Virus record (IMG/VR): IMGVR_UViG_3300044630_007810
DNA: 64,000 nucleotides
From: an uncultured virus (IMG/VR IMGVR_UViG_3300044630_007810)
Taxonomy: Duplodnaviria > Heunggongvirae > Uroviricota > Caudoviricetes
Direction: 5' to 3' (one strand)
Below the pieces are notes generated by a model. That model searched no databases and had not been told where the DNA came from. It saw only the letters and a program-made list of their open reading frames with translations. A program made the position numbers and the translations under genes. This document shows, piece by piece, positions 9-34,198 of this stretch (positions are counted from its first letter, which is position 1; each line of letters starts with the position of its first letter).

Positions 9-902
9 ATGAAAGAAATTTACAGCTTTAAGATAGAAAGAAAAGTAGAAAAAACAATACCATATATAAAAAAAACTAAAGATGGTAGCGTAGAATCAAC
101 AAAAAAAGTAATTGAGTGTACTCCAAATCGAGTTGTTTTCGTGAAACCTTCAATGGCAACAATAGAAGAGGCTGAGTTTTTTTATGGTCAAAAATTCAAT
201 GAATATATCAATTCTGGCTTTTTAACTAAAGCTATGTTAAATAAAAAAATGGGCGATATTGGAGGTTTTTCTTCAAAAATTTCAATAGAAAAATTACAAA
301 AATCCATTATTGATAATATGGAGGCTTCTAGAACAATTGAATTTTTTGGAGAATCAACGGATTTAACAGAAGAGCAAAAAGAAAAATTACAAGAAGCAAA
401 AGGAATTTTTGTTAGTACAAAAAATGATATTTTTGAACACGAACAATCAATGAGATCTCAGTTTTCACAAACAGCAGATGCGAAGGCAGAGCAAAAGCTT
501 ATTGAATGGCTCGTCTTTAATTTGTCTTATTACGAAGAAGAAGTTGATTCTAAAAAACAATTATTTCCAATTTTTCAAGGAGATAGTTTTGATCAAAAAA
601 GAAGATTTTATCTTGAGTTGTGTGAGTCTATAGAAGACATAGATGATCAATCTTTATTGAAAATAAAAAATATATTCGATCAATCATTTAATACTTTAGT
701 AAGAACGGCAAGTATATGGTACAATAAGATTGCAGAAAAACAAGAGGATATTGAAAAAGCGATAAATGAAATGTTTGGTGATTCTTCAGAAAATCTCATT
801 GAAGACAATGCAAAAATAGAAGCTGATTCCGAAATAAACAAACAAGATTCTGAAGAGCAAGTTGATGAAGTTATCGAAAAAGATAACTCAAATGAAAAAT
901 AA
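9..902 (+). CDS. Hypothetical protein, possible tail assembly chaperone
   Basis: 297 aa helical protein with an acidic tail, two genes upstream of the tape measure gene; function from position only. Confidence 0.4.
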   Translation: MKEIYSFKIERKVEKTIPYIKKTKDGSVESTKKVIECTPNRVVFVKPSMATIEEAEFFYGQKFNEYINSGFLTKAMLNKKMGDIGGFSSKISIEKLQKSIIDNMEASRTIEFFGESTDLTEEQKEKLQEAKGIFVSTKNDIFEHEQSMRSQFSQTADAKAEQKLIEWLVFNLSYYEEEVDSKKQLFPIFQGDSFDQKRRFYLELCESIEDIDDQSLLKIKNIFDQSFNTLVRTASIWYNKIAEKQEDIEKAINEMFGDSSENLIEDNAKIEADSEINKQDSEEQVDEVIEKDNSNEK

Positions 903-1773
903 AGATGAGTTAAATTCTAAAGCACACTCCGCTTTAATTGATATTGTTCGTGGTTTTAGTATAATACATACTGAAAACCACGAATTTTATTTTAAACATT
1001 TTGCCTTAAGTGAAATTCTATTAATAGAAGAAACTTATGACTTTTATTTAAGATCAGCAAAAAAAGCTGGCATTAAAACAGAAAAAGAAATTATTGATTC
1101 TGCGATCAAAAATGGTTATTGGACAATAGATAAAGAAGAAGAGATTAAATCGTTAAAATGGATGATGGCCAAGCTTGTTGAAGCCGAAAAAAAGATGAAT
1201 GATCCGATACAAAAGCTTTCTTTAAAACAAAATGTCGAAAGTAAATCTAAAGATTTAGAAAAATTAAAGAATGAAAAAGATCTTTTGGTAAAATTTAGTG
1301 CCGAAAATTTTGCTCAAAATAAAAAATTTAAAAATTTAATAGCAAATTGTTTTTTCAAAGATAAATCTTTTACAGAACCAGTTAGTGAAGAAGAATCAAT
1401 TATTTATCATTCTGAATTATTTAATAAAATGTCTGATTTAAATTCTAAAGAAATAATTGTTTATAGCGCCTATAATCCGTCCTTCTTTGAATTAATGAGT
1501 TTGCACTATAGGCAACCTCATGTTATATTTAATAAATCTGGTTTTGATTTAACAATTTATCAAAAAAATATATTAATTTACGCCAACTCTTTATTGAATA
1601 AATTTAAAAATTATTCAATCCCTGATTCAATATTAGAAGATCCAATAAAAATATTAGATTATGTGGAAAAAGAAGATGCAAAAAAATCTAATGTAAGTCA
1701 TGGTGTTGAGGATTTAAAAATTAAAAGCGCTGCTAGGGGAGGTTCTTTAAAGGCAGAAGACTTTTTGACTTGA
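892..1773 (+). CDS. Hypothetical protein, possible tail assembly chaperone
   Basis: ATG at 892 (MKNKDEL) overlaps the upstream stop; immediately precedes the tape measure gene. Confidence 0.4.
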   Translation: MKNKDELNSKAHSALIDIVRGFSIIHTENHEFYFKHFALSEILLIEETYDFYLRSAKKAGIKTEKEIIDSAIKNGYWTIDKEEEIKSLKWMMAKLVEAEKKMNDPIQKLSLKQNVESKSKDLEKLKNEKDLLVKFSAENFAQNKKFKNLIANCFFKDKSFTEPVSEEESIIYHSELFNKMSDLNSKEIIVYSAYNPSFFELMSLHYRQPHVIFNKSGFDLTIYQKNILIYANSLLNKFKNYSIPDSILEDPIKILDYVEKEDAKKSNVSHGVEDLKIKSAARGGSLKAEDFLT

Positions 1774-1791: not shown

Positions 1792-4700
1792 ATGGCCAAC
1801 ACATCAGGTATTAATATTACAGGTAATTTAACCCTGAATCCCCAAAGCATTAATGCTGCGTCAAAACAGGTTCAACAAGCTTTAGGAAGGATTACGGGTC
1901 AAGCTTCAGAGTTTCAAAAATCACTTGACGCTTCAACTGCTCGTGTATTTGCTTTCGGAGCTACTACCTCTATATTAAATGGAGTTTCTCAAGCGTTCAA
2001 AGGGCTTATTGCTAATACGATAAATGTTGAAAAAAGATTAACGGAAATAAGTACAATAATTGGATCTACAGGTTCCCAGCTTAACGATTTTAGAAATACA
2101 ATTTTTGATGTTGCAAAAACTACTGGACAATCTTTTAATGTTGTTGCAGATGCCGCATCAGAATTAGCAAGACAGGGTTTAAATGCAGAGGAAACTGCAA
2201 AAAGACTTGAGTCTGCATTGGTTTTAACGAGAATTTCTGGTCTTGATTCAGTTAAATCAGTAAAAGCTCTTACCGCCGCAATTAATGGATTTAGTAGCGC
2301 TGGATTAACCGCAGAACAAATAACCAACAAACTTGTTGCTGTTGATACAGCGTTTGCTGTTTCAGCTCAAGATTTGGCTGAGGCATTTAGTAGAGCTGGT
2401 TCTACCGCAGAAGATGCTGGAGTTAGTTTCGATGAACTTTTAGGTATAGTTACTGCTGTTGAACAAACAACATCTCGTGGTGGAGCAGTTATTGGTAACG
2501 CATTAAAATCTATATTTACTAGATTAGGCAGAGGTTCTGTTGTAGAAGATTTGCGGGAACTTGGTGTCGAGATTAATTCTTCTCAAAGTGGCGTTCAAAA
2601 ACTTCAAGCATTATCTCAATCACTTGAAAATATAAGCGATCCAACTGTAGCTAATAAAATTAAAGAATTGGCTGGTGGCGTTTATCAAATAAACATTGTT
2701 AGTGCCGCACTCAAGGATTTGGGTTCGGATACATCTATTTTTTCTCAAGCGGCAAGCAAATCTGCATCAGCGATGGATGAAGCGTTTACAAAAAATGCCG
2801 CATTAAATGAAATGATCAGCTCTCAAATGAATGCGTTAGTTGTTGGTTTAACAAATTTATCAGAAAAAATTGGGACAATAACGTTCGGGCCAATTATAAA
2901 AAATCTTTTAAGCTTGGCTAATGAGTTTACATCCTTTTTAGAAACAGCATTTGATCCAGAAAAGGGTAATAAATTTATTCAAGGAATATTTGACGCTATT
3001 GGAAACTTTCTTTCTGGTCCAGGTTTGGTTCTTATAACAACAGGATTTTTAAAAATATTTTCTCTTGTTGCAAAATTTGCAAAAGAAGGTTTTAAAACTG
3101 TATTACAAATCGGTTCTGAATCAGAAAAAATTAAAAATATTGAAAGTGGAATTGTTGGTCTTTTGTCAAGAGATCAGCAATTAAGAGCAATTATAGCTAG
3201 TTCAACAGCAACGCAAGCGCAAAAAGAACAGGCTGTTATTAATGCAATTAAAGCAGAAAATGATTTATTAAGACAACAAGAACAGTTATTAAGAAGTATT
3301 GCTACGGCAGCAGCTCAAAGAGGTGTTGTTGGATACAGTCCAGATAAGGGCTTTACTGGCAAAGGCAAAAAAACTTTTGCTGCTGGATTTATGGTTGAGG
3401 AGGCTCAGGCGCGAATGTTAGGAGCAAGTCCGAATGTTAAGGCTAAAATGAGCAAAGGCAAAATTGGTGGACAAAAGTTCATCATGAATAATGAAGAAAT
3501 CGAAATACCAAAATTCGGAAAAAATGGAGATTCTGCTGTTATACCAATGTATAATAAAGGTTATATACCAAACTTTGCAAAATATATATATGATTCCGAT
3601 AGGATTGCTCCAGACAAAGGGGCTACCTTAAAAGCAGTTCTTGCTTCTCAAGTTAAAAAGAATCTTATTATTGGTCCAGCGGGATCGGGCAAATCGACAT
3701 TAGCTGGTAGAACAGGAAAATTTCTTTCTAATGCTGATGATGTGTCTAATGCCACCGAAATTGATATTCTTTCTGGAGCTGCTCGTGCAAAAGGAGGTGG
3801 TATATCTAAAAATTTAGAAGCTATAATTTCAGCAGTAAATGGTTCTGACGGTAAAGTGTCTTATCTTTATACAAAAAATCTTGATATCTTATCTAGAAGA
3901 GCTGGAAGAACGGTCGCAGAAGAAGGGGATTTAAGAAGTAAAAAACAATTAAAAGGAACAACTTATGCGCCATTAAATCAGTTTGATTTTATGGGTTATG
4001 TTAAATCAAAATCTCGTAATTTTAATTTAATTAATGCGGCCAAAGGCTTTATACCAAATTTTCAAAATCGTACACTTCCATTATTGCAAGATCAGGCAAT
4101 TTTAAGACAGTTAGCGGCAGATCCAAATAGTGGATTAGATCCAACTAAAACTCAATTAAGAACATCTCAAGTAATTACATATAATGGGCAACAATATGCA
4201 GTTCCAGCGTCTAAGCTTAAAAACGCTTTAGAAGTTGGTGACAAGCAAAAAAAAGTTATTGATGTAGCTTCTGTAATTGGAACTAAAATGCCAACCATGT
4301 TAACGCCTAATGATAATTCAAAAGACATTACTTATACACAAAACTTAAAAGATTCTGGCGTTAAATTAAAATATGTTTTCGACGCTTTTAAAGCAGGAGG
4401 TACAGATGAACTTAGGCAAAATTTTGAAAAAAACTTTGGAGAAACAGAAATAGAGGAACTAGCAAGAAAATTCATTTTAAATCAATCACAAGTATTAGCA
4501 AAAGCGTTAGATTTAAAACCAGCAGAACCAGATTCCGTTAAAGAAGTTATGGGTGGTGAAGGATTTAAAGGTGCTATTAGATCTGCTTCTGGATCTTTAT
4601 TTGAAGCTGCAATCAGCTCTACCTTGCAATACAAAGCATTAAATCCAGCTTCTGGCGGTAATTTTGATGTAAGAACCGCTGGAGCTACTGACAAACAAAT

Positions 4701-7023
4701 AAATTCTATTAAAAAACTATTTGGAGAAGATTCAATTGTATCTAGTGGATTAGCAGATTTCAAATATTCGGCAGAAACAAACAAAGAAAGCATGGCGGCT
4801 AAAGTTAAGAAAGAATATTCTGCAAAAATTAATGATGCAATTAGCAAATCAATTTCTAAAAAAAATAAAGCGACTGGATACATTCCTAATTTTGCAGATC
4901 CACTTAAAGAGGCTATTGGCCGCGAAATGTCTGCTGGCATTCCAGCTTCGCAAATTTATGTAGACCAAAATTCATCATTAAAGAACTCCATGAATCCAAT
5001 GGGATTAATGGTTGCTAATCGTCGTGATGAACCAGCTGGTGGTATTCAAGGAATTAGTCGCGCAAGAAAAGAAGGGGCTAATCCAAAATTATATGGAGCA
5101 GCTCGTGGTTTTATCCCTAATTATGCAGCTAAAGCACCTGACGACATAGATGGAAAAGTTAAATTTTCACTTGAAAAATTCAGTGGAGCCTCTATTGCGT
5201 TATCTATGGCTCTTTCCTCTGTTCCATCTTTAATCGGCCCAACAGAAGAATTAGACTCGGCTATGACTAGCACTGCTAAAACAATAACTTCTTCAGCCGC
5301 TCAATTTGCTTCAATTGGATCTGTTTTTGGTCCATATGGTGTAGCAGTAGGTGCTGCTGCTGGAGTGATAATGTCTGTAGTAGACGCTTATAAAGATGTA
5401 AAAAACAAACAAGAGGAGGGTGTTAAAATACAAGAAGAAGTTAATAAAAAACTTAAGGGATTAACCGCTGTAAGGAAGGGCCGACAAGAAGCATTTGGTT
5501 CTGAAACCAACAAAGACGCTGCATCCGCTCAACAAGATTTAATCAAAGCGTTAAAAGATAGAAGTATGTCTATAAAACCATTACAGGACGCAGAATCTAA
5601 TTTGAAAAAAATTTACGAAGAGCAAACTTCTACAGAAGAAGATAAAAACGAAGCATCTTTTAAATATATAGAGGCTATAAAAAGAGCGAAAAATAGTTTG
5701 GATCACATTAATTTTACAGAAGATTTTGCAAAAAAAATACAGGAGTCTGCAGCGAAGTTTTCTAAAACATTAGATCTTGTATCTACTAAATTAGAACAAC
5801 AATCATTTCTTGAGGGAATAGCGGGAGGATTTACAGCGAAAGAAGGATCTAAATATTCAGGTGCTGTAACATCAGCAACTGAAACGCAACAAAGCGTAAC
5901 TCAAAGCACTAAATCTGCTGTAGATTTTAGGGCAAATTTCGCTAGTTCTGATTTTGCTAGTATGATGAACCAGGTTAAACAATCGCAATTGTCAGGTAAA
6001 ACGGGTGCTGAAATTTCTGGTACAGTTTCTGCTGATGTATTTAAAGCCTATATGGAAAAAGGCTCTCAAGGAGTAACTCAAGAACTGTCAAAATATATTA
6101 ATCTTGAAGGCGAAGCTGCTCAAAAATTTAAAGATAATGTAATTTCATCTGCGCAAACATTTAGAAATAATGTTGCTGAGACAATGAAAGGAATGATTAA
6201 TCAAAGAACAGACTTAGAAAACAAATTAATCACCACTAATAAAGAAATACAATCAAAAATAACATCATCTATTTCTGGAATCACAGAAAAATTATCATCA
6301 ATAACACAAGGTCCAAAAATTGATCCTCTTGCAATTTCTAAAGCGTTTTCAGAAGCGGCAAAAATTTCAGCAACAAATCCAGAGGAGGCTGCTAAAATTA
6401 TAGATAGAGTTTCTGAGCAGTTTGTTAAATTTAGGGAAATTTTTGGCGAAGAGGCTGCTAGAAAATTAGCCGAATCTTCTGGGCTTGGTTTAAAGGAAAC
6501 TCAAAATTTAACCGCTGGTACTGCTGCATCACAAATAAATTATAAAGCAATTGAAGATGCGTTATTAAAATCATTAGGTTCAAATCAATTACCGTTAAAT
6601 ATACAAAAAGCTATACAAGCGGCAAAACTTGATGTTAAAAATGTTCCTGCATTACAAAAACTCATAGATGAAAAAATGCAAGGTTCAAGATTTGATCAGT
6701 CAAGAAAAACTATTCAAGCTGCTTTAACTGGTGTTGCTGCTGGCAAACCAGATGAAAATAAAGATGATGTTAAAAAATTGGAAGATGAAAGGAATAGGAC
6801 TTCCCTAGAATTAAAAAATCTTAACGAAAGGATTGCTAAGTTTTCACAAGATTTTGAACCAACTGGAATACCTAAAGCTATGGAAGCTTTATCAGAATCG
6901 ATATTCAATGCAAGTGATAACGTAAAGGGATTCCAAGAATTTACAAGCAATTTAAACAGATTATCAACTACGATTAATCAAAGACTTTTAGATATTGAAA
7001 GAAGATTAAGTCAAGTAAATTAA
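1792..7023 (+). CDS. Tail tape measure protein (TP901-like N-terminal core) with internal cassettes
   Basis: 1743 aa, Ala/Ser-rich; TP901-type core (ELARQG..., DLAEAFSRAGSTA..., GNALKSIFTRL); internal GPAGSGKST and four G[FY]IPN[FY] motifs; hydrophobic Gly/Ala segment after the fourth motif. Confidence 0.9.
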   Translation: MANTSGINITGNLTLNPQSINAASKQVQQALGRITGQASEFQKSLDASTARVFAFGATTSILNGVSQAFKGLIANTINVEKRLTEISTIIGSTGSQLNDFRNTIFDVAKTTGQSFNVVADAASELARQGLNAEETAKRLESALVLTRISGLDSVKSVKALTAAINGFSSAGLTAEQITNKLVAVDTAFAVSAQDLAEAFSRAGSTAEDAGVSFDELLGIVTAVEQTTSRGGAVIGNALKSIFTRLGRGSVVEDLRELGVEINSSQSGVQKLQALSQSLENISDPTVANKIKELAGGVYQINIVSAALKDLGSDTSIFSQAASKSASAMDEAFTKNAALNEMISSQMNALVVGLTNLSEKIGTITFGPIIKNLLSLANEFTSFLETAFDPEKGNKFIQGIFDAIGNFLSGPGLVLITTGFLKIFSLVAKFAKEGFKTVLQIGSESEKIKNIESGIVGLLSRDQQLRAIIASSTATQAQKEQAVINAIKAENDLLRQQEQLLRSIATAAAQRGVVGYSPDKGFTGKGKKTFAAGFMVEEAQARMLGASPNVKAKMSKGKIGGQKFIMNNEEIEIPKFGKNGDSAVIPMYNKGYIPNFAKYIYDSDRIAPDKGATLKAVLASQVKKNLIIGPAGSGKSTLAGRTGKFLSNADDVSNATEIDILSGAARAKGGGISKNLEAIISAVNGSDGKVSYLYTKNLDILSRRAGRTVAEEGDLRSKKQLKGTTYAPLNQFDFMGYVKSKSRNFNLINAAKGFIPNFQNRTLPLLQDQAILRQLAADPNSGLDPTKTQLRTSQVITYNGQQYAVPASKLKNALEVGDKQKKVIDVASVIGTKMPTMLTPNDNSKDITYTQNLKDSGVKLKYVFDAFKAGGTDELRQNFEKNFGETEIEELARKFILNQSQVLAKALDLKPAEPDSVKEVMGGEGFKGAIRSASGSLFEAAISSTLQYKALNPASGGNFDVRTAGATDKQINSIKKLFGEDSIVSSGLADFKYSAETNKESMAAKVKKEYSAKINDAISKSISKKNKATGYIPNFADPLKEAIGREMSAGIPASQIYVDQNSSLKNSMNPMGLMVANRRDEPAGGIQGISRARKEGANPKLYGAARGFIPNYAAKAPDDIDGKVKFSLEKFSGASIALSMALSSVPSLIGPTEELDSAMTSTAKTITSSAAQFASIGSVFGPYGVAVGAAAGVIMSVVDAYKDVKNKQEEGVKIQEEVNKKLKGLTAVRKGRQEAFGSETNKDAASAQQDLIKALKDRSMSIKPLQDAESNLKKIYEEQTSTEEDKNEASFKYIEAIKRAKNSLDHINFTEDFAKKIQESAAKFSKTLDLVSTKLEQQSFLEGIAGGFTAKEGSKYSGAVTSATETQQSVTQSTKSAVDFRANFASSDFASMMNQVKQSQLSGKTGAEISGTVSADVFKAYMEKGSQGVTQELSKYINLEGEAAQKFKDNVISSAQTFRNNVAETMKGMINQRTDLENKLITTNKEIQSKITSSISGITEKLSSITQGPKIDPLAISKAFSEAAKISATNPEEAAKIIDRVSEQFVKFREIFGEEAARKLAESSGLGLKETQNLTAGTAASQINYKAIEDALLKSLGSNQLPLNIQKAIQAAKLDVKNVPALQKLIDEKMQGSRFDQSRKTIQAALTGVAAGKPDENKDDVKKLEDERNRTSLELKNLNERIAKFSQDFEPTGIPKAMEALSESIFNASDNVKGFQEFTSNLNRLSTTINQRLLDIERRLSQVN

Positions 7024-12210: not shown

Positions 12211-14492
12211 GTGAAGTTATTACTAATGTTGAGGTGAATTTTTCTTCTAGTGGTGGATCTCATAGCGCCACAGTAACAACTTCAAACGCCTCCTCTACTT
12301 GTGGGTCTGCTTCGCTTGGTTCTGTAATTGGAAAAGTTGGAGAAAGGTCATCTTTTACAAAATCTGAGGTAGATAAATTATTAAAAGATTTTGTTTTAGA
12401 CGAAACAACTACTACAAAAGATTCTTTTGGAATTAAAAAAAGTTATAAATATATAGATTCACTTTCAAAATTTTTAGATTCTTGGGTTGTCTTATGTAGA
12501 GGTACTACTGCTCCAGTAGGAACAAGTGATTTATCTTATGATGGAGCAGTATATGCGCATTCAGAATTTCCAGGAGTTTATAAAATAAAACGAAAACAAC
12601 CAGCTGTTAATGTTACTGGAGTTGGAAATAAAGTTTTGTCATCTGATAGAATCATCATTCTTGGAAAAAGTTATTCTATATATAGCGTGATGGAAGAATC
12701 AAAGAAGATATATTTAGCTTATAATAAAAAAAGTATTGTTAGCGATCTTTCTTATGCTAATGCAGCTGTCAAAGTATCAGGCGAAGTATTAGATGCAAAT
12801 AAAGCATCACTTAAATATGGTTATTTAGTTTCAGATTTTTTTGCAGCCTTAAGATCTCTTGGATTAACTATAACTGGAGCGCCTAGTAGTAATTCAATAT
12901 TATTTGATACATCTGGGACAATAAGATCATGCTTATCATCTATCGCTTCATTTTTTGGATACTATTGGTATGTTGATAATAAATCAATAAAATTTATTTC
13001 TTCTGCTGAGGCTAATTCAATACAAATTTCTAATCCAACAACCGATACAAATCCAAAAATTTTATCAGCATCTTTTACAGAAGGAGGCAGAACCCCTAGA
13101 ATCGTTGCATCATTTAATGGCTCCACTTCTTCTACACCGTCTTCTTACTCTAATTCTACTACTATAAATTATACTAGTGGTGCGCAATTAATAAAAAAAC
13201 AACTAAATAGAGTAGATTTCGATAAACTTTTTTCAGGTTTACAATCAGACTTATCGTCAGCTCTTATTGAAAGTTTTTATTCATTTTTTTGCTCTCCACA
13301 TGCAAATTCTCCAGCAAGTTTTGATAAGTTAATTTATTGCTCTTCTTGTTTTTATGAAGCTTTTGATGGCGGCACTTATTATCCGCAAAAACCCAAAAAT
13401 AAAACATCAAAAAAAGTAAGCAATATTGTTGGAACAGATACCAATGCATATAAAACCTCTAAAACAAGAAGTTTATTGGGAGATAGCGCTTCTTTTTTTC
13501 CTTTATTAGATACGGATGATAAAGTTATGGCTAAAGCAAGCGAAACGCCACTTTATACCTTATTGAAAGGATATTATGACACTTTTGGAACTGTTTTTAT
13601 CTCTAGGGGTTATAGCGATAAATTTGCAAAAAATCAAACATTAATTTCTTCAGATGGTGTTACAGTTGATGGACCATATAAAGGTAATACAAAAATAAGT
13701 CAAATAGGTTTTTTTGCAGATATCGTTACTCTTTTACAAAGCAAGGGTTTTACTATTCCTACAGTAGCAACATTGGCTGGTTATGCTGGTATGAGGAAAG
13801 GAGCGAATTATTTTATAGCTATAGCAAAAAAACAATTAGTGCCAGAAGATTCTATCGATAATTTTGGTGATCTTTCACAAAAAGTTGATTATTTTACATA
13901 TAGTAATAATCCATTTATTGGTGTGCAAGACGAATCAGTAAAAACTGGTTTGACAAAAAATTTAAAGAGTTCAAAAAGATTATATTCAAAAGCATTAAAA
14001 AATTTAAAAAATCATATAACATTAGCAAAGATAGATATCTTGCCTCCAGGTGACGAAGAAGATGGTAGTGGTGATGACGAAGAAGAAGAAGAAGAAATAG
14101 ACTATCAACAAGTTTATTCTCAAATAAAATCTCAAAAACCAAATGACTTTAACAAAAGTGAATTAAAATCCTATAATGCATCTTACTCAGAATCAAAAAC
14201 TCTTGCAGCAAATTTTAAGAGTTTAAATGGAGCGAATCCTAGCGCTATAAAATCATCTTCTGTTACTTATTATGATTTTGAAATACCAAATAATATAACT
14301 ATTGACATTGATTCTGTTTCTTTAAGTGTATCTAGTGATGGTGTTAGCACAACAATAAGTAAAAGCAACAAAGCTTTCTTACCTCCAGATCAATCTAATT
14401 TCTTAACTAATTCAAATATTTCTATTACAAATACACAAGCTGTTAGTAAGATATTTAGCGCTGGAACTAAAAATTTCTTAAAAATTAATTAA
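12207..14492 (+). CDS. Putative tail tip/baseplate hub protein
   Basis: 761 aa, last gene of the tail operon; segment RSCLSSIASFFGYYWYVD resembles hub proteins; acidic tract. Confidence 0.45.
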   Translation: MSEVITNVEVNFSSSGGSHSATVTTSNASSTCGSASLGSVIGKVGERSSFTKSEVDKLLKDFVLDETTTTKDSFGIKKSYKYIDSLSKFLDSWVVLCRGTTAPVGTSDLSYDGAVYAHSEFPGVYKIKRKQPAVNVTGVGNKVLSSDRIIILGKSYSIYSVMEESKKIYLAYNKKSIVSDLSYANAAVKVSGEVLDANKASLKYGYLVSDFFAALRSLGLTITGAPSSNSILFDTSGTIRSCLSSIASFFGYYWYVDNKSIKFISSAEANSIQISNPTTDTNPKILSASFTEGGRTPRIVASFNGSTSSTPSSYSNSTTINYTSGAQLIKKQLNRVDFDKLFSGLQSDLSSALIESFYSFFCSPHANSPASFDKLIYCSSCFYEAFDGGTYYPQKPKNKTSKKVSNIVGTDTNAYKTSKTRSLLGDSASFFPLLDTDDKVMAKASETPLYTLLKGYYDTFGTVFISRGYSDKFAKNQTLISSDGVTVDGPYKGNTKISQIGFFADIVTLLQSKGFTIPTVATLAGYAGMRKGANYFIAIAKKQLVPEDSIDNFGDLSQKVDYFTYSNNPFIGVQDESVKTGLTKNLKSSKRLYSKALKNLKNHITLAKIDILPPGDEEDGSGDDEEEEEEIDYQQVYSQIKSQKPNDFNKSELKSYNASYSESKTLAANFKSLNGANPSAIKSSSVTYYDFEIPNNITIDIDSVSLSVSSDGVSTTISKSNKAFLPPDQSNFLTNSNISITNTQAVSKIFSAGTKNFLKIN

Positions 14493-15256
14493 TGCTTTTT
14501 TAACAAAACAATTAATTTTCTACATTCTTTCGCTGGGATGTCTTTATATTGAACCCAATTTTTTACATCTTCATTTCTATATAAATTAGATGTCCATTGA
14601 TCCCTAAGCCAAACAACAAAATCATCAAACGATTTCATGCCTTTTTCAGAAACAATTTTTTCTAAAAGACCACTTGGCTTTAGCACTGTAAGGTCATCTA
14701 CATTTTCTGGAGATTCCGATGAATATAAATTATTTTTAGAGCGATCAATTTCGTCTGCACCAACAATATGAATATTCAAAAAGTTACGCACACAACGGAC
14801 AAACGCTCTATTGCAAGCAATAGTTTCTAAAAATTTAATACAAAAATCATCCGTATTATTCGCTGTGGCATTAGCCACATCTTCAAAAAGAACAGATCTA
14901 TCATTTGTCTCATAGTTTCCAATCCACGTAATCTGACACTTAGCCACAACATAATCTTCTTTAATGTGGGAAACTTGATATGCCACATCAGTAAACCCGC
15001 GCAATTTAGCTAATTCCTTGATGCCACCCAACATAATAAGCAATTGTTTATCATTCAAGCCATCCATTGAATTTGGAACACTTTGATTTCTAATGTCAAA
15101 CCATCCCTTATTTGGATAAAGGAATTCTGGTTTAATCATTGCTCGCCAATCAATAGATCCATCTTCAGAATAAATATATTCTACGGATTTAATAAGTCCA
15201 TGCTCATTACGAACATATTTTTCGAATGGAGGAATTGAAGTTTCTTGTTTACTCAT
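14489..15256 (-). CDS. Putative Rad52/Sak-like single-strand annealing protein
   Basis: VVAKCQITW...FEDVANAT...ETIACNRAFVRCVRNFLNI resembles the annealase core; start MSKQ at 15256. Confidence 0.4.
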   Translation of the reverse strand: MSKQETSIPPFEKYVRNEHGLIKSVEYIYSEDGSIDWRAMIKPEFLYPNKGWFDIRNQSVPNSMDGLNDKQLLIMLGGIKELAKLRGFTDVAYQVSHIKEDYVVAKCQITWIGNYETNDRSVLFEDVANATANNTDDFCIKFLETIACNRAFVRCVRNFLNIHIVGADEIDRSKNNLYSSESPENVDDLTVLKPSGLLEKIVSEKGMKSFDDFVVWLRDQWTSNLYRNEDVKNWVQYKDIPAKECRKLIVLLKKH

Positions 15257-16382
15257 GTTGGTCATCATATAGATAATACCAATCTAAGTCAAGAAAAAAA
15301 TCATCTTCATTTTTGCGATCATTAAAATCATAGTAAGTGTCATATACTTTGTTGCCGCAAAGTATTTTTTTGTTTGATTTAATTTTTGTTTTTTGTAAAT
15401 CAAAGTTTGGCAATTTTTCTCTATTGATTTTAATCAATTCGCTTAATTCAAATAAATTAACCGTAAAATCAAATAACTTAAATCTTTGTTCAGAAAGTTT
15501 TTCTTTCGATGTGCAAAGCAATATATGATTAACTCCAGATTTTTTAATTCTTTTGACAAATTCCACATCGAACTCTTCTGCGACATAGTTTATATTTTTA
15601 ATTCTTTTTGACAATAATAGATCATCATGAATTGGTTTGCTTAAAGTGACTTCAGCATTATTTGTTTTAAGAATATTGAATAAATTTTCCTCATTATGAA
15701 AAAGATCCATTCTTACGTTAATAGAATCACATATTACTTCGCATTTTTGTGATGGAATAATTTCTAAACATTCATCTTTATATCTTGCTCCAATATTTAT
15801 TGTTTTATAATTGATTTTTTCATTTGGAATATTAAGTAGTTTTAATCCAGCACTTGCTATTTCTTCTGGTTTTATTCTATTAACTGTTTTTGGATTTTCA
15901 TTAAAAGAGAAAGAAGGTTTTTCTTTATCAGCTCTATGCGTTTCTATTAAAATCTGATCTCCTCTTTCTCCCCAATAAGGCTTAACACACTCCATAAAAG
16001 AATTAGAGTAAATTGAAACCATTTTTCTTTTGAAGAATCCTGCTAAATGAGCTGGGAATGAATCTACCCCAAGAAATAAATTACATTTTTTTACAATATA
16101 TGCCATTTGACGAATAGAGGTTTTACCTCTTAAATCTATGTCGCAATTTATTGTTGGATCTTTTTCAAGCCCAATTTGAATTGTTTTGTATCCATATTTA
16201 TTTAAAATAGGATCTAAAATAAATTTAACTTCATTCCAATAATCATAATCTCGTAAATTATCTTTTGCTGATGTATGAAAACATACAAATTTATCAGCAG
16301 AGATTGGAAAAAATTGTTCTGAAATTGATGGATTATTAATTTTTAATCCAGTTGATAATGAATATCTTTCTATTAAATGCAT
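15249..16382 (-). CDS. Glycosyltransferase, GT9 (heptosyltransferase-like)
   Basis: IDLRGKTSIRQMAYIVKKCNLFLGVDSFPAHLA is a GT9 C-terminal motif. Confidence 0.75.
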   Translation of the reverse strand: MHLIERYSLSTGLKINNPSISEQFFPISADKFVCFHTSAKDNLRDYDYWNEVKFILDPILNKYGYKTIQIGLEKDPTINCDIDLRGKTSIRQMAYIVKKCNLFLGVDSFPAHLAGFFKRKMVSIYSNSFMECVKPYWGERGDQILIETHRADKEKPSFSFNENPKTVNRIKPEEIASAGLKLLNIPNEKINYKTINIGARYKDECLEIIPSQKCEVICDSINVRMDLFHNEENLFNILKTNNAEVTLSKPIHDDLLLSKRIKNINYVAEEFDVEFVKRIKKSGVNHILLCTSKEKLSEQRFKLFDFTVNLFELSELIKINREKLPNFDLQKTKIKSNKKILCGNKVYDTYYDFNDRKNEDDFFLDLDWYYLYDDQHE

Positions 16383-16383
16383 C

Positions 16384-18117
16384 TTAGTATTTATTGTAAT
16401 TTTCTGAATGAATTTCAAACATAATTTTATCTTTATTTCCCTGATGCAGATAGTCTAATTGTCTTTGAGTACCAATATGTGGCAGAAAACATATTTGAAA
16501 ATATCCTTGATGATCAGATCTTCCTTCCATCATTACGAGATTTTCCATAAATGGATTGTATTCTATGATTTTGTATATAAATTCATTTAAATCTAAAATA
16601 GGGAAAAACTCTTTTTTAGTAGCAAAGTAAAGGTCTTTTTCTGGGTAAGCTTCTTTTATGGATGGCAACAATGAGGTTAACATGAATACATCTCCAGCAG
16701 ATTCTGGCATAACAATTAAAATTCTATCTTCTTGATTTTTATCTAAAAGACTTTCAAATGAAATTGTTTGTTGTTTTTGGACTTCTTCATTAACAATGAT
16801 TTCTTTGTTTTTATTTTTTAAATCAACAAAAATTTGCTTTAAATCATTTTTGATTTTTTGTACAGAAAATTTTTCATTAACTGTTTTTTTACCATTTTGA
16901 ATTAAAGATTGTTTTTCATCAAAACTCATTTTGAGTACTTTATCAAGTTTTTCGCAAATGTCTTGTGGACAGGTTGTTGCTTTAATAAATTGAGTATGGG
17001 GTTCTCTGTATTCATTCCACTTTAAGGGTAGTCCACCTTGATGAGGATAACAAGAATCTGTTCCGCACGAATACTCTGTAACCAATGTAATTAATCCAGC
17101 AGCTTTTGCTTCTTGAATTGGAAGCTCTTGACCACCACTTGTAAATGGATGACAATAAACGTCCATGCAAGAATATATTTGATTCAATTGATCTTCGGAA
17201 ACCCCAAGTCCACTGTTTTTTGTATGAACTCTTTCCTTAGCTCCACAAGAAGGGCAATCTTTCTTTTCTCCAATGTATTTGTGTAAAAAGAATTCTCCAC
17301 ATTGATGACATATGTAAGAAGCTAAAACATCATCTTCATTTATGTTTTTTTCTTTAATATATCTTGGAATATCCCATCCATGATTAACTTCAGACCAATC
17401 TGTATGAAGAAGTAATTTGGTTTTTAACTTTGGATTCTTTTCTTTAAATAGTCTAAATCCATCTAAAAGATTTGGAACAGATTTTCTTAATTGATTTTTA
17501 AAAACAAAGCCAATTACAAAATCTTCGTTTATATTGAACTTTGACCTAATTTGATCTCTTTCTGCAAGAGGTTTAAAATCTGAATAATCAATAGCTCCAT
17601 GAATAGTTTTGACATTTTGAAAACCATTTTTTTTCATTTCCTGTTCTGCAAAAGATGCCCATACAATAAATTCATCACATTTAGGCGCAATATGAAATGC
17701 GTCTGGTAAAATTGGAACACTATCAAGTGTAGTCCAAATTATTGTGCGCAAAGTATTCCACCATGGTTTTTTCTCAAAATCTTTGAATGCCCAAATATCT
17801 TCAATACCCAAATATATGTCTGGCTTACATTCTTCAATAATTTTATCAATACAATAATAACCATATGAAGCCATTCTTTGTTTCATTCCATCATTTCCTA
17901 TCTCATTCATTAAATTAGGATCAGAAGGAGCTGTTCCGTAGCACTTCCATGGAGTTTTAAGATCAGCTCCATATGGAACACCATTAGCAGCTTCAATAAC
18001 CTCTATATCTGGATCATTATGTAGTGCAAGTAATAGATTTCGCATATTTTTGCCAAATCCAGTTACCATTCTACTATAATTAGAATGAAAAAGAATTTTA
18101 ATTTTAGAATGGGGCAT
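16384..18117 (-). CDS. GT4 (GT-B) glycosyltransferase with zinc ribbon and C-terminal GT9-like N-domain
   Basis: TGFGK N-terminus; DVYCHPFTSGGQELPIQEAKAAG; CHQC...CPSC; C-terminal ESAGDVFMLTSLLPSIKEAYP. Confidence 0.8.
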   Translation of the reverse strand: MPHSKIKILFHSNYSRMVTGFGKNMRNLLLALHNDPDIEVIEAANGVPYGADLKTPWKCYGTAPSDPNLMNEIGNDGMKQRMASYGYYCIDKIIEECKPDIYLGIEDIWAFKDFEKKPWWNTLRTIIWTTLDSVPILPDAFHIAPKCDEFIVWASFAEQEMKKNGFQNVKTIHGAIDYSDFKPLAERDQIRSKFNINEDFVIGFVFKNQLRKSVPNLLDGFRLFKEKNPKLKTKLLLHTDWSEVNHGWDIPRYIKEKNINEDDVLASYICHQCGEFFLHKYIGEKKDCPSCGAKERVHTKNSGLGVSEDQLNQIYSCMDVYCHPFTSGGQELPIQEAKAAGLITLVTEYSCGTDSCYPHQGGLPLKWNEYREPHTQFIKATTCPQDICEKLDKVLKMSFDEKQSLIQNGKKTVNEKFSVQKIKNDLKQIFVDLKNKNKEIIVNEEVQKQQTISFESLLDKNQEDRILIVMPESAGDVFMLTSLLPSIKEAYPEKDLYFATKKEFFPILDLNEFIYKIIEYNPFMENLVMMEGRSDHQGYFQICFLPHIGTQRQLDYLHQGNKDKIMFEIHSENYNKY

Positions 18118-21506: not shown

Positions 21507-21887
21507 TCAAGGTAAATCTATTCGAAAATTATTATTTTCAATAATTTTTGGTTTATCTTGTACGTGTTTTACTTTATTTTTCTTTTTGTATTCATTGAAA
21601 AATTTTCTTTTTATCGGATCTTCTGTGCCACATTTTTCCTCTCTTTTATTTGACATTTCTGAAGAGTAGTCGATTAGATCTCCATATGTGCCTTTCATTT
21701 TACCAGTTTTTTCGACGAACTCTTTTGATGAAAATGGGTCCACATGAGAGTCAATTGAAGCCTGAGGTATAGTAAAGACTCTTTTCCATTCAACATCATC
21801 TTCGAAATAAACATGAGCTTCATTCATAGTCTGAACGATTTCTTTGTAAATTTCATCATTTGGATGTTTGTAAATATAAGTAGGCAT
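21507..21887 (-). CDS. FmdB-like small protein lacking the zinc cysteines
   Basis: MPTYIY...EIVQTMNE...WKRVFT N-terminus typical of FmdB-type proteins. Confidence 0.5.
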   Translation of the reverse strand: MPTYIYKHPNDEIYKEIVQTMNEAHVYFEDDVEWKRVFTIPQASIDSHVDPFSSKEFVEKTGKMKGTYGDLIDYSSEMSNKREEKCGTEDPIKRKFFNEYKKKNKVKHVQDKPKIIENNNFRIDLP

Positions 21888-22975
21888 TATTGTTTTATAG
21901 TTTCAAAAATTTTATCTATAGATTTTGAATAAGTAAATATATTTTTAAGTTTTTTTCCTTCTTCATTTACTGTTTTTGCAAGTTTTTCAGCTCTTTCAAA
22001 TCCATCGATAATTGATTCGTCTTTTATAAGATAATAATTACCTTGATTAAATGGCGCTCCTTGTCTAAAAAAGAAGTTATCATAACAAGGTTGTTTGTTA
22101 TTAGCTTCAATTAAAATAGAATTTTCTCTTGTAGCCCAATCTTTATGAGAAGAGCAATTTGAGACAACAGACCATTTGCCTAATGCTGTGGCGTTAAATG
22201 CTGGCAAGTTCCATCCTTCGCCATTGGATATACCAGATAAATCAATGTCTATAGCATTCATTAACTCATTAACTTCAGAATTTGTTTTAAGAAATGGAAG
22301 AAAATTAATATTTTTCCATTTTCTATTAGAAACGGTTTGATTTATAATTTGAGCAAAATCTTCTGGTTTAAAAAACGGATTATTGATTAAACATGTTAAT
22401 TGATATCTTGGATTATCTCCATACTTCTTTAACCAAAGTTGAATTATTCTTTGCGTATTCTTTCTGTGTTCAAGTTTTCCAATTAGTCCAAAATGAATCA
22501 CACCATTATCAAGATAGCTTTTATTTGTTTCAAAAAAATCTTCATCAAAACCAAGCGGTACATAAGATACGTTATTACATCCCTTAGATTTAAAAATATC
22601 GCAAGATTCTGATGATGAAAAAAATACGTGTTCTTGATTTGAAACTATATTAATCTCATCTTCTGTTGGAGAGTCTACTTCGTAAAATGTATACAAATAT
22701 TGTCTTTTAGAAAATCTTGATTCAGATCCATTTATATGCCAATTTTTCAAAACTGGAGTTTCATGATTAAAGGTTTTTAGCCTATTAAAAGAATTAAATT
22801 TAATCCATTCTAAAAAATCTTGATTAGCTCTATCAAAAGAATCAAAATTAGCCGAGTTGCCAACTGGAAAAATACTTGTTTTTACATTTCTTTTCCATAT
22901 TTCTTTTAGAAAATTATAAGATACATTACCAAGACTGAGTTGGTTAATTGGTCCGTCAAAAATTAAGTTGTTCAT
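21887..22975 (-). CDS. GT4 (GT-B) glycosyltransferase
   Basis: VPLGFD; GKLEHRKN; GEGWNLPAFNATALG. Confidence 0.8.
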   Translation of the reverse strand: MNNLIFDGPINQLSLGNVSYNFLKEIWKRNVKTSIFPVGNSANFDSFDRANQDFLEWIKFNSFNRLKTFNHETPVLKNWHINGSESRFSKRQYLYTFYEVDSPTEDEINIVSNQEHVFFSSSESCDIFKSKGCNNVSYVPLGFDEDFFETNKSYLDNGVIHFGLIGKLEHRKNTQRIIQLWLKKYGDNPRYQLTCLINNPFFKPEDFAQIINQTVSNRKWKNINFLPFLKTNSEVNELMNAIDIDLSGISNGEGWNLPAFNATALGKWSVVSNCSSHKDWATRENSILIEANNKQPCYDNFFFRQGAPFNQGNYYLIKDESIIDGFERAEKLAKTVNEEGKKLKNIFTYSKSIDKIFETIKQ

Positions 22976-27820: not shown

Positions 27821-28252
27821 ATGACTATGACATTAAAATACAATAACCTATCGTCCCCCTTTATTTTTGAAGGGGATATTTTCAAGAAAATGTTTAATTA
27901 TCTTGAAACAAATCATGAAAATGATATTTGGACCTCTGATCCTTATGATATCTATAAGGATAAAGATGGAAATATTATTCTTGAATTCGCCCTAGTTGGG
28001 CTAGAACAAGAAGATATCAAAGTATTTGTTTCTGGACAAACATTAAAAGTTGAAGCATTAGCAAAAGAAAAAACCAACAAGGGTGAGGTTTATCATCAAA
28101 AAATATCTCGCCGTAGCATTAAAAAGCAATTTACTTTGCATGATAATGTTGATAAAGATGCAATTGACGCATCATATAAAAATGGTTTACTTTCTATTAA
28201 AATACCTCTTGAAAAAGAACAAAAAAGAGATATAACTATAAAAGTTAAGTAG
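27821..28252 (+). CDS. Small heat shock protein (Hsp20/alpha-crystallin)
   Basis: PYDIY...LEFALVG...DIKV...DASYKNGLLSIKIP. Confidence 0.9.
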   Translation: MTMTLKYNNLSSPFIFEGDIFKKMFNYLETNHENDIWTSDPYDIYKDKDGNIILEFALVGLEQEDIKVFVSGQTLKVEALAKEKTNKGEVYHQKISRRSIKKQFTLHDNVDKDAIDASYKNGLLSIKIPLEKEQKRDITIKVK

Positions 28253-31280: not shown

Positions 31281-32077
31281 AAATTAGCGTATATTCAACA
31301 GCATTCAACATTATTGGCAAAGGATTTAATTTTGAAGATGCATTAGATAATTGGTTTTACTATGCAGATGAAGTTTCGATTTCTGTAAATAAGAGTAATG
31401 ATGAAACATTTTTAAAAATCAAAAATTACGCCGAATCAAAACAATATAATCTTTTAATTGAAGAAACAAACTTCGATTATTCAGACCCATTTTTTTATGG
31501 AAAATTAGAAAATTCAGCATTGCAAAGATGCACTGGAGATATTCTTTTTCAACAAAATTTAGATGAAAGAATTGGAGGCAATATAGATATACTAAAACAA
31601 TTATGTGCAAACTTGTTAAATCAAAATGATTATTTTTCATTTTTTGTTCCTGTAATTAATCTCCATACTGATTACTATAATTATATTGATATTGGTCAAA
31701 AATGGTATATTCATAAGAGAGGAGCTAATAGAGGTCCAGTAAATTTTGGACTAAAAGAAAACGGCTTGCCTGATTACAATAAAACAAGTACCGATGAATT
31801 GATAGATAAAGATGGAAATCTTTTGCCGACTTTTCCACTTAATAAAATTAAAGATAATTTAGATGGATTAAATTACTTTAAAAGTGGTTTACCATTTACA
31901 TATCATTTAGGATATGTGGATCTTAATGAAAGAGTTAAGAGGAATGAATTTTGGAAAAACTTTTGGGAAAAGGCAACAGGAGGAGACTCAAATACTCATT
32001 CTTTGAATATACAAGATTATACATCAAAGTCTGTATCTCCACATAATCTTCAACTTTGGAATAAAATATGCAAATAA
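31277..32077 (+). CDS. GT2-like glycosyltransferase
   Basis: KISVYS...ADEV...SNDET...ALQRCTGD...LDE...YHLGY. Confidence 0.7.
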   Translation: MKISVYSTAFNIIGKGFNFEDALDNWFYYADEVSISVNKSNDETFLKIKNYAESKQYNLLIEETNFDYSDPFFYGKLENSALQRCTGDILFQQNLDERIGGNIDILKQLCANLLNQNDYFSFFVPVINLHTDYYNYIDIGQKWYIHKRGANRGPVNFGLKENGLPDYNKTSTDELIDKDGNLLPTFPLNKIKDNLDGLNYFKSGLPFTYHLGYVDLNERVKRNEFWKNFWEKATGGDSNTHSLNIQDYTSKSVSPHNLQLWNKICK

Positions 32078-34187: not shown

Positions 34188-34198
34188 TAAAAATAATT

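What the first reader, a model, noticed from the sequence alone, without database searches (positions are those of the whole stretch)
3559..5127. Tape measure protein carrying cargo cassettes delimited by a repeated G[FY]IPN[FY] motif
Seen: GYIPNFA (3559), GFIPNFQ (4045), GYIPNFA (4876) and GFIPNYA (5107), three of them preceded by A-x. The codons differ between copies, so conservation is at the protein level. The motifs split the middle of the protein into three unrelated globular-looking segments (~155, ~270 and ~70 aa) between the helical TP901 core and the hydrophobic C-terminal part. Known: tape measure proteins are often proteolytically processed and are ejected at infection. Inference: the motif is a cleavage or linker signal (or a cassette-exchange junction), making this a polyprotein that delivers swappable effectors into the host. 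Best candidate for an undescribed system in this window.
Basis: partly seen in the sequence, partly recalled or inferred. Interest (0 to 1): 0.85.

Follow-up and report, generated by a model that had tools for sequence, protein, structure and literature searches.

The report
Tape measure protein with motif-fenced modules
The tail "ruler" protein of this uncultured large water phage carries a row of separate protein modules, each ending in the same short peptide; related phages swap modules exactly at that peptide, which resembles the only mapped cutting site of a phage ruler protein, but neither cutting nor delivery has been shown.

Summary
The four G[FY]IPN[FY] copies lie at nt 3559, 4045, 4876 and 5107 of a 1,743-aa TP901-family tape measure gene (1792-7023); 0.01 are expected by chance.

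In 121 homologues the joint A-A-x-G-[FY]-[IV]-P-N-[FY]-A occurs 493 times, 3-11 per protein. Module number, order and identity vary (A-B, B-A-C, B-C, A-C and others).

Codons vary freely: 117 distinct 18-mers in 216 unique copies. Conservation is therefore at protein level.

DNA homology between related genes starts or stops within 4 nt of a motif edge in 11 of 25 collapsed events. Module A has moved motif-to-motif between tape measure genes that are otherwise about 39% identical.

Both AlphaFold models put all four motifs in stretches with pLDDT below 50. Module A has a P-loop kinase fold and also exists as free 147-195-aa proteins without the motif. Modules B and C are core parts of the family, and B's fold is unassigned.

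T5 pb2 has one match to [FY][IV]P[NKR], and it ends at its mapped cut (FVPR|A). Cleavage, the protease and delivery remain untested.

This scan noted the same system earlier on other DNA. I found no paper describing it.

The parts
1792..7023 (+). Tape measure protein gene (1,743 aa)
   Evidence: ORF, translation. Pfam PF10145 at 88.7 bits. PHROG tape measure families, best phrog_4211 at 5.5e-41.
2101..2676 (+). TP901-type core (PF10145), aa 104-295
   Evidence: This is the only part that matches cultured phages, at 23-28% identity and within aa 9-497 in the 40 listed rows of 255 matching records.
2995..3084 (+). First hydrophobic stretch, aa 402-431
   Evidence: Kyte-Doolittle 19-aa windows at or above 1.4.
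3559..3576 (+). Joint motif 1 (GYIPNF, aa 590-595)
   Evidence: pLDDT is below 50 (model residues 1-78). It is the 5' edge of the transferred module-A cassette.
3577..4044 (+). Module A: accessory P-loop kinase-like module (aa 596-751; folded core aa 596-749)
   Evidence: Walker A GPAGSGKS and invariant G114, G116, K117, T119 of alignment A3. AF2 core pLDDT 75-92. VIA best hits are P-loop kinases: 4gp6 Z 7.2, 7owe Z 7.1, 6epg Z 6.8. Free-standing homologues of 147-195 aa exist. The DNA is 92-94% identical to L002-L004.
4045..4062 (+). Joint motif 2 (GFIPNF, aa 752-757)
   Evidence: pLDDT is below 50 in both models. The 99.5%-identical stretch shared with L001 ends on its last base.
4063..4260 (+). 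Replaced sub-segment at the start of B (aa 758-823)
   Evidence: Unalignable with L001, although the flanks are 99.5% and 98.6% identical. It largely coincides with low-pLDDT model residues 39-72.
4261..4875 (+). Module B core (aa 824-1028), a family-wide module of unassigned fold
   Evidence: Alignment A2 has nearly invariant F192, D214 and K246 in row-1 numbering. Present in 44 of 179 inter-motif segments of the unbiased set. No Pfam, PDB-sequence, fold or Atlas match.
4876..4893 (+). Joint motif 3 (GYIPNF, aa 1029-1034)
   Evidence: pLDDT is below 50 (model residues 279-289).
4894..5106 (+). Module C (aa 1035-1105), a small conserved terminal module
   Evidence: Family 2 (78 members, median 77 aa). 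It is the last inter-motif segment in most architectures. pLDDT 72-83.
5107..5124 (+). Joint motif 4 (GFIPNY, aa 1106-1111)
   Evidence: pLDDT is below 50 (model residues 358-372).
5179..5394 (+). Second and third hydrophobic stretches (aa 1130-1149, 1175-1201)
5395..7020 (+). C-terminal part (aa 1202-1743), without motifs
   Evidence: No motif lies there. In longer relatives this part holds lysozyme, SLT or VanY domains or a chitinase domain (precomputed Pfam column); the window's protein has none.

Best explanation
The gene encodes the tape measure protein of an uncultured large tailed phage.

Its middle (aa ~520-1112) lies between two hydrophobic regions. It is a string of autonomous modules, each closed by the ten-residue joint A-A-x-G-[FY]-[IV]-P-N-[FY]-A.

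Shown: the joint is conserved as protein, not as DNA. It lies in stretches that the models leave unstructured, between folded modules. Homology between related genes begins and ends at it, so whole modules are added, dropped, reordered and moved between distant tape measure genes motif-to-motif.

Inferred: the joint is a signal read by a common partner, most likely a protease. Cutting at or next to the P-N position, as T5 cuts pb2 after F-V-P-R, would release modules close in extent to the free-standing versions.

Inferred: because tape measure proteins leave the tail first at infection, the modules reach the host envelope or cytoplasm ahead of the DNA. Here these are a P-loop kinase-like module A plus the family's core modules B and C.

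My odds: modular array with exchange at the joint, about 0.9; the joint is a cleavage site, about 0.45; modules act in the host, about 0.5.
For: - Chance: 4 copies against 0.01 expected.
- Joint frequency: 493 instances in 121 proteins, with G 99%, P 100%, N 100% and A at -2 in 75%.
- Module diversity: 372 inter-motif segments fall into 32 families and 39 distinct architectures, including A-B (42), B-A-C (14), B-C (10), A-B-C (6) and A-C (1).
- Unbiased set: among 80 loci ascertained on the N-terminal core, 53 have at least 2 motifs, with 179 segments, 43 families and 17 architectures.
- Codons: 216 unique copies give 117 distinct 18-mers, and all synonymous codons are used.
- Window versus L001: 99.5% identity up to the last base of motif 2, then 198 nt unalignable, then 98.6%.
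- Module A cassette: 508 nt running from 4 nt before motif 1 to the last base of motif 2 are 92-94% identical to L002-L004. There the module sits in B-A-C order, in genes otherwise 37-39% identical at protein level.
- Homology ends: 24 of 40 internal ends in motif-bearing genes lie within 4 nt of a motif edge. Collapsing near-identical partners by hand gives 11 of 25. My own arithmetic puts about 1% of a gene in such windows.
- Models: all four motifs have pLDDT below 50, while module A's core reaches 75-92.
- Free-standing homologues: seven clusters of 147-195 aa start with M and carry no motif. They begin (M-R-Y-V-F-D-S-D) where module A begins (A-K-Y-I-Y-D-S-D).
- T5: pb2 is cut after R1127 (PMC10038345, passages). 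Residues 1120-1135 read NANSFVPR|AEGGMMYP. This is the only match to [FY][IV]P[NKR] in 1,219 aa, against 0.016 expected per shuffle.
- Sister lineages carry K or R in place of N: GHIPKFA, GNIPRFA, GYMPKFA.
Against: - No protease was found. PHROGs recognise none among 18 upstream ORFs of the near-identical record G001. The window's 'ATP-dependent protease' PHROG hit is a ClpA/B-like double AAA+ ATPase by Pfam.
- No proteomic or other experimental datum exists for any member, and no cultured phage carries the module zone.
- The T5 likeness rests on four residues. The pattern was widened to K/R after seeing sister lineages, so it is post hoc.
- T5's site lies after its hydrophobic stretch and occurs once; here the joints lie before the second hydrophobic region and occur four times.
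- Low pLDDT shows no more than a lack of predicted structure.
- Homology ends are drawn to the motif partly because the motif itself aligns everywhere, so the resolution is about 20 nt.
- 16 of 40 internal homology ends are not at motifs: 3 lie in the module zone and 13 lie more than 800 nt downstream.
- 25 of 80 related TMPs have no strict motif.
- B and C are near-constant, so most of this particular protein is not swappable cargo.
Confidence: 0.5

Rival explanations
1. The joint is a docking or packing peptide, not a cut site. It would bind a common partner such as the tail assembly chaperone, the inner wall of the tail tube, or a neighbouring chain. That would hold bulky modules in an extended or ordered state inside the narrow tube. 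The modules stay tethered to the tape measure protein and, after ejection, work as a chain anchored in the membrane by the flanking hydrophobic stretches.
For: The joint is a short aromatic/proline peptide in unstructured linkers, which is typical of docking peptides (general knowledge). The module zone lies between hydrophobic stretches at aa 402-431 and 1130-1201, which fits a tethered loop. IPNF-like strings recur at short spacing just before the first joint in most relatives (consensus; sequences). No protease was found.
Against: No partner was identified. The match to the T5 cut site and the agreement in extent between module A and its free-standing relatives are more naturally read as processing. 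The two readings do not exclude each other.
Confidence: 0.3
2. The joint has no role in the protein. It persists only as a stretch of DNA homology at which recombination shuffles cassettes.
For: Homology ends sit on the motif.
Against: 216 unique copies use 117 different 18-mers, and every synonymous codon is used roughly as in the rest of the genes. Meanwhile G, P and N are 99-100% invariant as residues. The window's own copies share only 13-15 of 18 bases. Selection for DNA homology would keep bases, not residues.
Confidence: 0.05
3. The joint cuts itself. The invariant Asn would cyclise and break the N-[FY] bond once the tail is assembled, as in the Asn-dependent maturation cleavage of some animal-virus capsids and in inteins. 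This comparison is recalled, not tested.
For: Asn is 100% invariant in 493 copies and is followed by an aromatic residue.
Against: Sister lineages have K or R at that place (GHIPKFA, GNIPRFA, GYMPKFA) and T5 has R; these cannot cyclise. No conserved acidic helper residue was identified.
Confidence: 0.05

Closest known systems
Phage T5 tape measure protein pb2 and its maturation to pb2* + pb2C (Linares et al. 2023, PMC10038345; passages read)
   Same: It is a tape measure protein cut during tail morphogenesis at a site that separates an enzymatic part from the rest. The cut follows F-V-P-R (SFVPR|AEGG), the only [FY][IV]P[NKR] string in pb2. That string resembles G-[FY]-[IV]-P-N-[FY]-A and the K/R variants of sister lineages.
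   Different: T5 has one site, after its hydrophobic stretch and before a muralytic motif. Here there are four sites (up to 11 in relatives), before the second hydrophobic region and fencing non-muralytic modules. No sequence homology to pb2 was tested beyond the motif. The cleavage-mapping figure and table of that paper (fig. S5G, table S3) were not seen.
Polyvalent proteins of phages and conjugative elements (Iyer et al. 2017, PMC5512222; passages read)
   Same: These are large mosaic proteins that string together kinase, GNAT, nuclease, peptidase and other domains. They are thought to enter the host with the DNA and to be processed into parts.
   Different: Those proteins are described as head-packaged or T4SS-borne, with processing proposed by built-in zincin-like metallopeptidases. 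The text holds 0 occurrences of 'tape measure'. Here the carrier is the tape measure protein, no peptidase domain is found in the window's protein, and a fixed joint peptide fences every module.
Thermus phage P23-45 gp96, a 5,002-aa tape measure protein with a fused virion RNA polymerase (Chaban et al. 2024, PMC10770324; abstract and passages read)
   Same: It shows by experiment that a tape measure protein can carry an enzyme that acts in the host right after ejection.
   Different: It has one N-terminal enzyme, and in what I read there is no repeated joint motif and no cassette exchange. A search of the main text gave 0 occurrences of 'proteoly' and one of 'cleav', which concerns removal of an expression tag.
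TP901-family tape measure proteins with muralytic inserts (for example SPbeta YomI, annotated as transglycosylase)
   Same: They share the N-terminal core family (PF10145; 23-25% identity over aa 10-420) and carry extra enzymatic domains.
   Different: No cultured relative matches the module zone. The muralytic domains of the window's relatives lie outside the motif zone.
Lambda gpH, cut to gpH* + gpHC (PMC12617516; passages read)
   Same: It is the other tape measure protein known to be cut. Both the cut site and the catalyst are still unknown.
   Different: gpH has no [FYWMLIV][IVLMT]P[NKRS] string. Its Gly-rich C-terminal region has F-A-T-G-G and Y-A-T-G-G strings instead.

Membership tests
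TP901-family phage tail tape measure protein (Pfam PF10145 PhageMin_Tail) | Match to PF10145 above the gathering score | tested here: met
   88.7 bits against a cut-off of 33.2, aa 104-295. 12 PHROG families match at E<=0.01; 11 of them are annotated as tape measure.
TP901-family phage tail tape measure protein (Pfam PF10145 PhageMin_Tail) | Longest gene of a tail module, after chaperone-like genes and before tip genes | tested here: inconclusive
   Two overlapping ORFs (9-902, 862-1773) precede it and five large ORFs follow, but none has a family match. In G001, TerL lies about 12.7-14.6 kb upstream on the same strand.
TP901-family phage tail tape measure protein (Pfam PF10145 PhageMin_Tail) | Sets tail length and sits in the tube lumen | not testable with these tools
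   No virion or cultured member is available.
Proteolytically processed tape measure protein of the T5 pb2 kind | Cut-site peptide F-V-P-R|A or a close likeness | tested here: met
   The four joints read G-[FY]-I-P-N-[FY]. T5's only [FY][IV]P[NKR] string ends at the mapped R1127. This is a likeness of 3-4 residues, with N here in place of R.
Proteolytically processed tape measure protein of the T5 pb2 kind | The protein is actually cut there during tail assembly | not testable with these tools
   This needs virion mass spectrometry.
Proteolytically processed tape measure protein of the T5 pb2 kind | The site lies between the hydrophobic stretch and a muralytic domain | tested here: not met
   The joints lie at aa 590-1111, before the hydrophobic stretches at aa 1130-1201. 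The window's protein has no muralytic domain.
Polyvalent proteins (Iyer et al. 2017) | Several unrelated effector-type domains in one mosaic polypeptide of a phage | tested here: inconclusive
   In the window only module A has an assigned fold, P-loop kinase at Z about 7. Relatives add GNAT and PcfJ-like modules. Most of the 43 segment families have no Pfam match.
Polyvalent proteins (Iyer et al. 2017) | Built-in processing peptidase (zincin-like MPTase or other) | tested here: inconclusive
   No peptidase family matches in the window's protein. An H-E-x-x-H string in one module of P0117 was seen by eye only and was not tested.
P-loop kinases (module A) | Walker A motif and kinase-type P-loop fold | tested here: met
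   GPAGSGKS, with invariant G, G, K and T in 11 sequences. All of the top VIA rows I read are P-loop proteins, mostly kinases, at Z 5.2-7.2. Foldseek's best hit is an adenylate kinase at E 3e-3. Z below 8 is middling, and the substrate class is open.
PD-(D/E)xK nucleases (module B) | Restriction-endonuclease-like fold with E...D...(D/E)xK | tested here: inconclusive
   A conserved F-E, D and [DE]-x-K pattern is visible in A2. There is no Pfam match, no PDB sequence match, no Foldseek hit at E<=1e-3, a best VIA Z of 4.3 on a helix, and an Atlas score below 0.9. The model is only moderate, with mean pLDDT 62.

The most novel reading that the evidence does not exclude
The joint is a true processing signal, and T5's FVPR|A site is the solitary relative of it. 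A widespread clade of aquatic phages, probably of Flavobacteriia and other Gram-negative bacteria, would then use the tape measure protein as a plug-and-play polyprotein. Any module placed between two joints is loaded into the tail, cut free, and delivered into the cell ahead of the genome. The conserved joint would also supply the homology that lets phages trade these modules.
Probability: 0.35. Interest if true: 0.85.

Novelty: new variant of a known kind. Interest (0 to 1): 0.72.

Why it matters
Tape measure proteins are the first thing a long-tailed phage sends into a cell. How they are cut is unknown even for lambda and T5.

A conserved joint repeated hundreds of times, next to modules that also exist as free proteins, gives a defined peptide to test for processing. 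It also suggests what the unknown protease recognises.

If the modules are released in the host, this is a large and mostly unannotated pool of early-acting phage proteins: 43 segment families in 53 proteins, nearly all without a Pfam family. It would also be a natural scaffold for carrying chosen proteins in a phage tail.

Three literature searches found no description: the motif strings, 'tape measure protein' with 'polyvalent protein', and 'tape measure protein' with 'polyprotein'. This scan, however, has already reported the same system on other genomes, so this window adds a further case and new tests, not a first sighting.

Tried and rejected
- Trimer test. Complex prediction with three copies of module C plus its two joints (aa 1017-1117) gave 'no answer', score 0.00. 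It counts neither for nor against anything.
- Module B as a PD-(D/E)xK nuclease. This was my reading of alignment A2. It found no support from Pfam on 33 members, PDB sequences, Foldseek, VIA wide (best Z 4.3) or the ESM Atlas (best 0.82). It stays open.
- The ~75 aa before the first joint as a relative of module C. hhalign aligned only the 10 motif columns. Rejected.
- The window's PHROG 'ATP-dependent protease' (47670-50009) as the processing enzyme. Pfam shows a ClpA/B-like double AAA+ ATPase with no peptidase domain.
- Search for a protease upstream. 18 ORFs of G001 gave TerL, PhoH, an ERCC4-type nuclease and one tail protein, and no peptidase. These genes are too divergent for this to count as absence.
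- Context of the free-standing module A gene P0124. The viral-contig scan found no relative.
- Cultured relatives. Megablast of 20 kb gave no match. tblastn with P0001 and P0037 matched only the N-terminal core.
- Other module identities. A protein-kinase-like DLHGGN...IDLD string, an HAD-like DWDGT string, an HExxH string and further E...D...ExK strings in the segments printed were read by eye only; Pfam did not confirm them.
- Self-cleavage at Asn. Disfavoured by the K/R variants.
- Lambda gpH. It has no IPNF-like string.
Full report
THE OBSERVATION

The window's longest ORF, 1792-7023 (+), encodes 1,743 aa. It is a TP901-family tape measure protein (TMP). Pfam PF10145 matches at 88.7 bits against a cut-off of 33.2, over aa 104-295. 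Twelve PHROG families match, eleven of them annotated as tape measure.

A degenerate DNA pattern for G[FY]IPN[FY] hits four times, at 3559, 4045, 4876 and 5107. Shuffles give 0.01 expected. A relaxed six-frame scan adds only two unrelated strings elsewhere in the window. The near-identical 85-kb viral record G001 holds only the same four copies.

The copies share 13-15 of 18 bases. Hydrophobic stretches lie at aa 402-431, 1130-1149 and 1175-1201, so the motif zone (aa 590-1111) sits between them.

THE JOINT IN RELATIVES

A search with aa 560-1140 found 474 proteins, of which 120 were listed.

- In these plus the query, the motif occurs 493 times, 3 to 11 per protein.
- The consensus is A-A-x-G-[FY]-[IV]-P-N-[FY]-A, with G 99%, P 100% and N 100%.
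- Cutting at the motif gives 372 internal segments in 32 families and 39 distinct architectures. These include A-B (42), B-A-C (14), B-C (10), A-B-C (6, the query's) and A-C (1).
- P0009 lacks B and P0006 lacks A. In each case the remaining parts are joined at a motif.

That set was picked by likeness to the query's own modules, so I drew a second set on the N-terminal core only. It has 563 relatives in viral contigs, of which 80 were kept.

- 53 of the 80 have at least two strict motifs, 25 have none, and 10 have five or more.
- The 53 give 179 segments, 43 families and 17 architectures.
- 37 of the 53 are (82-aa unit)-B-C or B-C.
- Module A occurs in only 4 of all 84 loci.
- TMPs without the strict motif carry variants such as GHIPKFA, GNIPRFA, GYMPKFA and GTIPNFA around a B-like module.

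So B and C are core parts of the family. A and the many rare modules are accessory.

PROTEIN-LEVEL OR DNA-LEVEL CONSERVATION

Among 216 unique motif copies there are 117 distinct 18-mers. Every synonymous codon of G, F/Y, I/V, P and N is used, roughly as in the rest of these genes. The conserved thing is the peptide.

EXCHANGE AT THE JOINT

- The window's gene and L001 are 99.5% identical up to window nt 4062, the last base of motif 2. They are then unalignable for 198 nt, and then 98.6% identical.
- Module A's DNA is 92-94% identical to L002-L004 over 508 nt, from 4 nt before motif 1 to the last base of motif 2. There the module stands in B-A-C order, in genes otherwise 37-39% identical at protein level.
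- One search lists 47 internal homology ends at 90% identity or more. Seven are in genes without strict motifs. Of the other 40, 24 lie within 4 nt of a motif edge and 16 do not.
- Of those 16, three lie in the module zone (+157/+199, and +52 twice) and 13 lie more than 800 nt downstream of the last motif.
- Collapsing near-identical partners by hand gives 11 of 25 events at a motif edge. By my arithmetic about 1% of a gene lies in such windows.

One caveat applies. The motif aligns everywhere, so alignments tend to run up to it. The true crossover could lie anywhere within about 20 nt.

STRUCTURE

AlphaFold2 on aa 746-1117 (33-row alignment A2) gave a mean pLDDT of 62. Motifs 2, 3 and 4 lie inside stretches below 50, at model residues 1-23, 279-289 and 358-372.

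On aa 518-763 (11 rows, A3) the folded core is model residues 79-232, at pLDDT 75-92. It starts at the residue after motif 1 and stops just before motif 2, and both motifs are below 50.

Module A's model matches P-loop kinases:

- VIA wide gives 4gp6 polynucleotide kinase (Z 7.2, rmsd 3.8, 117 aligned), 7owe adenylate kinase (Z 7.1) and 6epg zeta toxin (Z 6.8). These rows are tied.
- Foldseek's best hit is an adenylate kinase at E 3e-3.

Walker A and a set of Arg residues are invariant.

Module B plus C found nothing. Foldseek gave 0 hits at E<=1e-3, VIA's best Z was 4.3, and Pfam, PDB sequences and the Atlas were empty.

MODULE A ALSO LIVES ALONE

A phmmer search of 1.84 billion representatives with the 153-aa protein P0124 gave 50 hits.

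- Seven clusters of 147-195 aa start with Met and carry no motif (P0124, P0125, P0128, P0131-P0134).
- The long hits from this TMP family carry the module between motifs.
- P0124 begins M-R-Y-V-F-D-S-D where module A begins A-K-Y-I-Y-D-S-D, directly after the joint. It ends before the linker that leads into the next joint.

The joint is thus not part of the module.

LIKENESS TO A KNOWN CUT SITE

The paper's text says pb2 is cut after R1127 (PMC10038345, passages; its fig. S5G and table S3 were not seen).

The T5 record gives NANSFVPR|AEGGMMYP at residues 1120-1135. This is the only match to [FY][IV]P[NKR] in 1,219 aa, against 0.016 expected per shuffle. The pattern was framed after seeing the K/R variants, so the coincidence is suggestive and not proof.

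According to PMC12617516 (passages), only T5 and lambda TMPs are known to be cut, lambda's site is unmapped, and the catalyst is unknown. Lambda gpH has no IPNF-like string.

WHAT IT MOST LIKELY IS

It is a tape measure protein whose middle is an array of autonomous modules fenced by a peptide signal. The array, the protein-level conservation and the exchange at the joint are shown.

That the joint is a cut site is inferred from its place in linkers, the extent of the free module and the T5 likeness. I put this at about 0.45.

A docking or packing role without cutting is the main rival, at about 0.3, and could co-exist with cutting. A DNA-only role is disfavoured by codon use. Self-cleavage at Asn is disfavoured by the K/R variants.

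Delivery into the host is inferred from what TMPs do in T5, lambda and P23-45.

CONTEXT

The window is from a large phage. It carries ribonucleotide reductase, DNA polymerase, primase/helicase, many glycosyl- and methyltransferases, an Hsp20 and a ClpA/B-like ATPase.

No cultured relative exists. In the genome collection all 23 related loci are MAG contigs, and 9 of them are titled Flavobacteri*. This is weak evidence for the host.

KNOWN OR NEW

Polyvalent proteins (PMC5512222) and TMP-fused enzymes (PMC10770324) are the nearest concepts. Neither describes a repeated joint or cassette exchange in a TMP, and the polyvalent-protein paper never mentions tape measure proteins. No paper holds the motif strings, and two further searches found no description.

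This scan itself reported the same joint in TMPs of other genomes (e1-5785040, e1-5975538, e1-5997810, e1-5831186), and related [FYM]-A-x-G-G joints in others.

- motif-to-motif transfer of one cassette between distant TMP genes;
- the breakpoint tally;
- the codon test;
- the family of free-standing module A proteins;
- the count that makes the T5 match unique within pb2.

Noticed in passing
window 9-902 and 862-1773 (+): Two ORFs of 297 and 303 aa overlap by 41 nt just upstream of the tape measure gene, where tail assembly chaperones with a programmed frameshift usually lie. The second is in the +1 frame relative to the first, and neither has any family match.
   Followed up: no
window 47670-50009 (+) and 27821-28252 (+): The phage encodes a ClpA/B-like double AAA+ ATPase (PHROGs calls it 'ATP-dependent protease') and an Hsp20. 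An unfoldase and a holdase could bear on loading or refolding bulky tape measure modules, but this is only a thought.
   Followed up: partly
window 43802-47686 (+): DNA polymerase appears to be split over three adjacent ORFs: a 239-aa ORF and an 855-aa ORF both matching phrog_405, with a 204-aa exonuclease-subunit ORF between them.
   Followed up: no
window 36458-37006 and 39544-39951 (+): Two HNH/homing-endonuclease-like ORFs lie on either side of a gene block that ends with a UvsX-like recombinase gene (38435-39547).
   Followed up: no
window 14489-18117 (-), 21887-22975 (-), 29817-34963 (+): There is a dense set of glycosyltransferase and FkbM-type methyltransferase genes, plus two nucleotide-sugar epimerases (36999-38075, 52190-53011). 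This suggests sugar modification of the virion, the DNA or the host surface.
   Followed up: no
P0136 (223 aa) and P0127, P0137, P0139, P0143, P0144: Module A-like domains also occur in giant proteins without any IPNF joint. In the fragment P0136 the module follows a ...PGEFV...GFANGG string, like the Gly-rich C-terminal unit of lambda-type tape measure proteins. P0127 (7,671 aa) matched in 13 stretches.
   Followed up: partly
window 4063-4260; L001 gene nt 2281-2436: A 66-aa stretch directly after motif 2 is replaced by unrelated sequence in a relative that is 99% identical on both sides. This suggests a small hypervariable piece at the head of module B.
   Followed up: partly
L054 aa 1925-2028; L060 aa 1216-1270; L078 aa 1559-1615; P0117 aa 1359-1414: Among long relatives, the Pfam families recognised apart from PF10145 are GNAT acetyltransferase (three proteins) and PcfJ-like (one). 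I did not check their positions against the motifs. P0117 also shows an H-E-x-x-H string by eye.
   Followed up: partly
window 55832-58138 (+): A 768-aa protein has five DUF285 repeats (197 bits), a repeat family named after Mycoplasma surface proteins.
   Followed up: no
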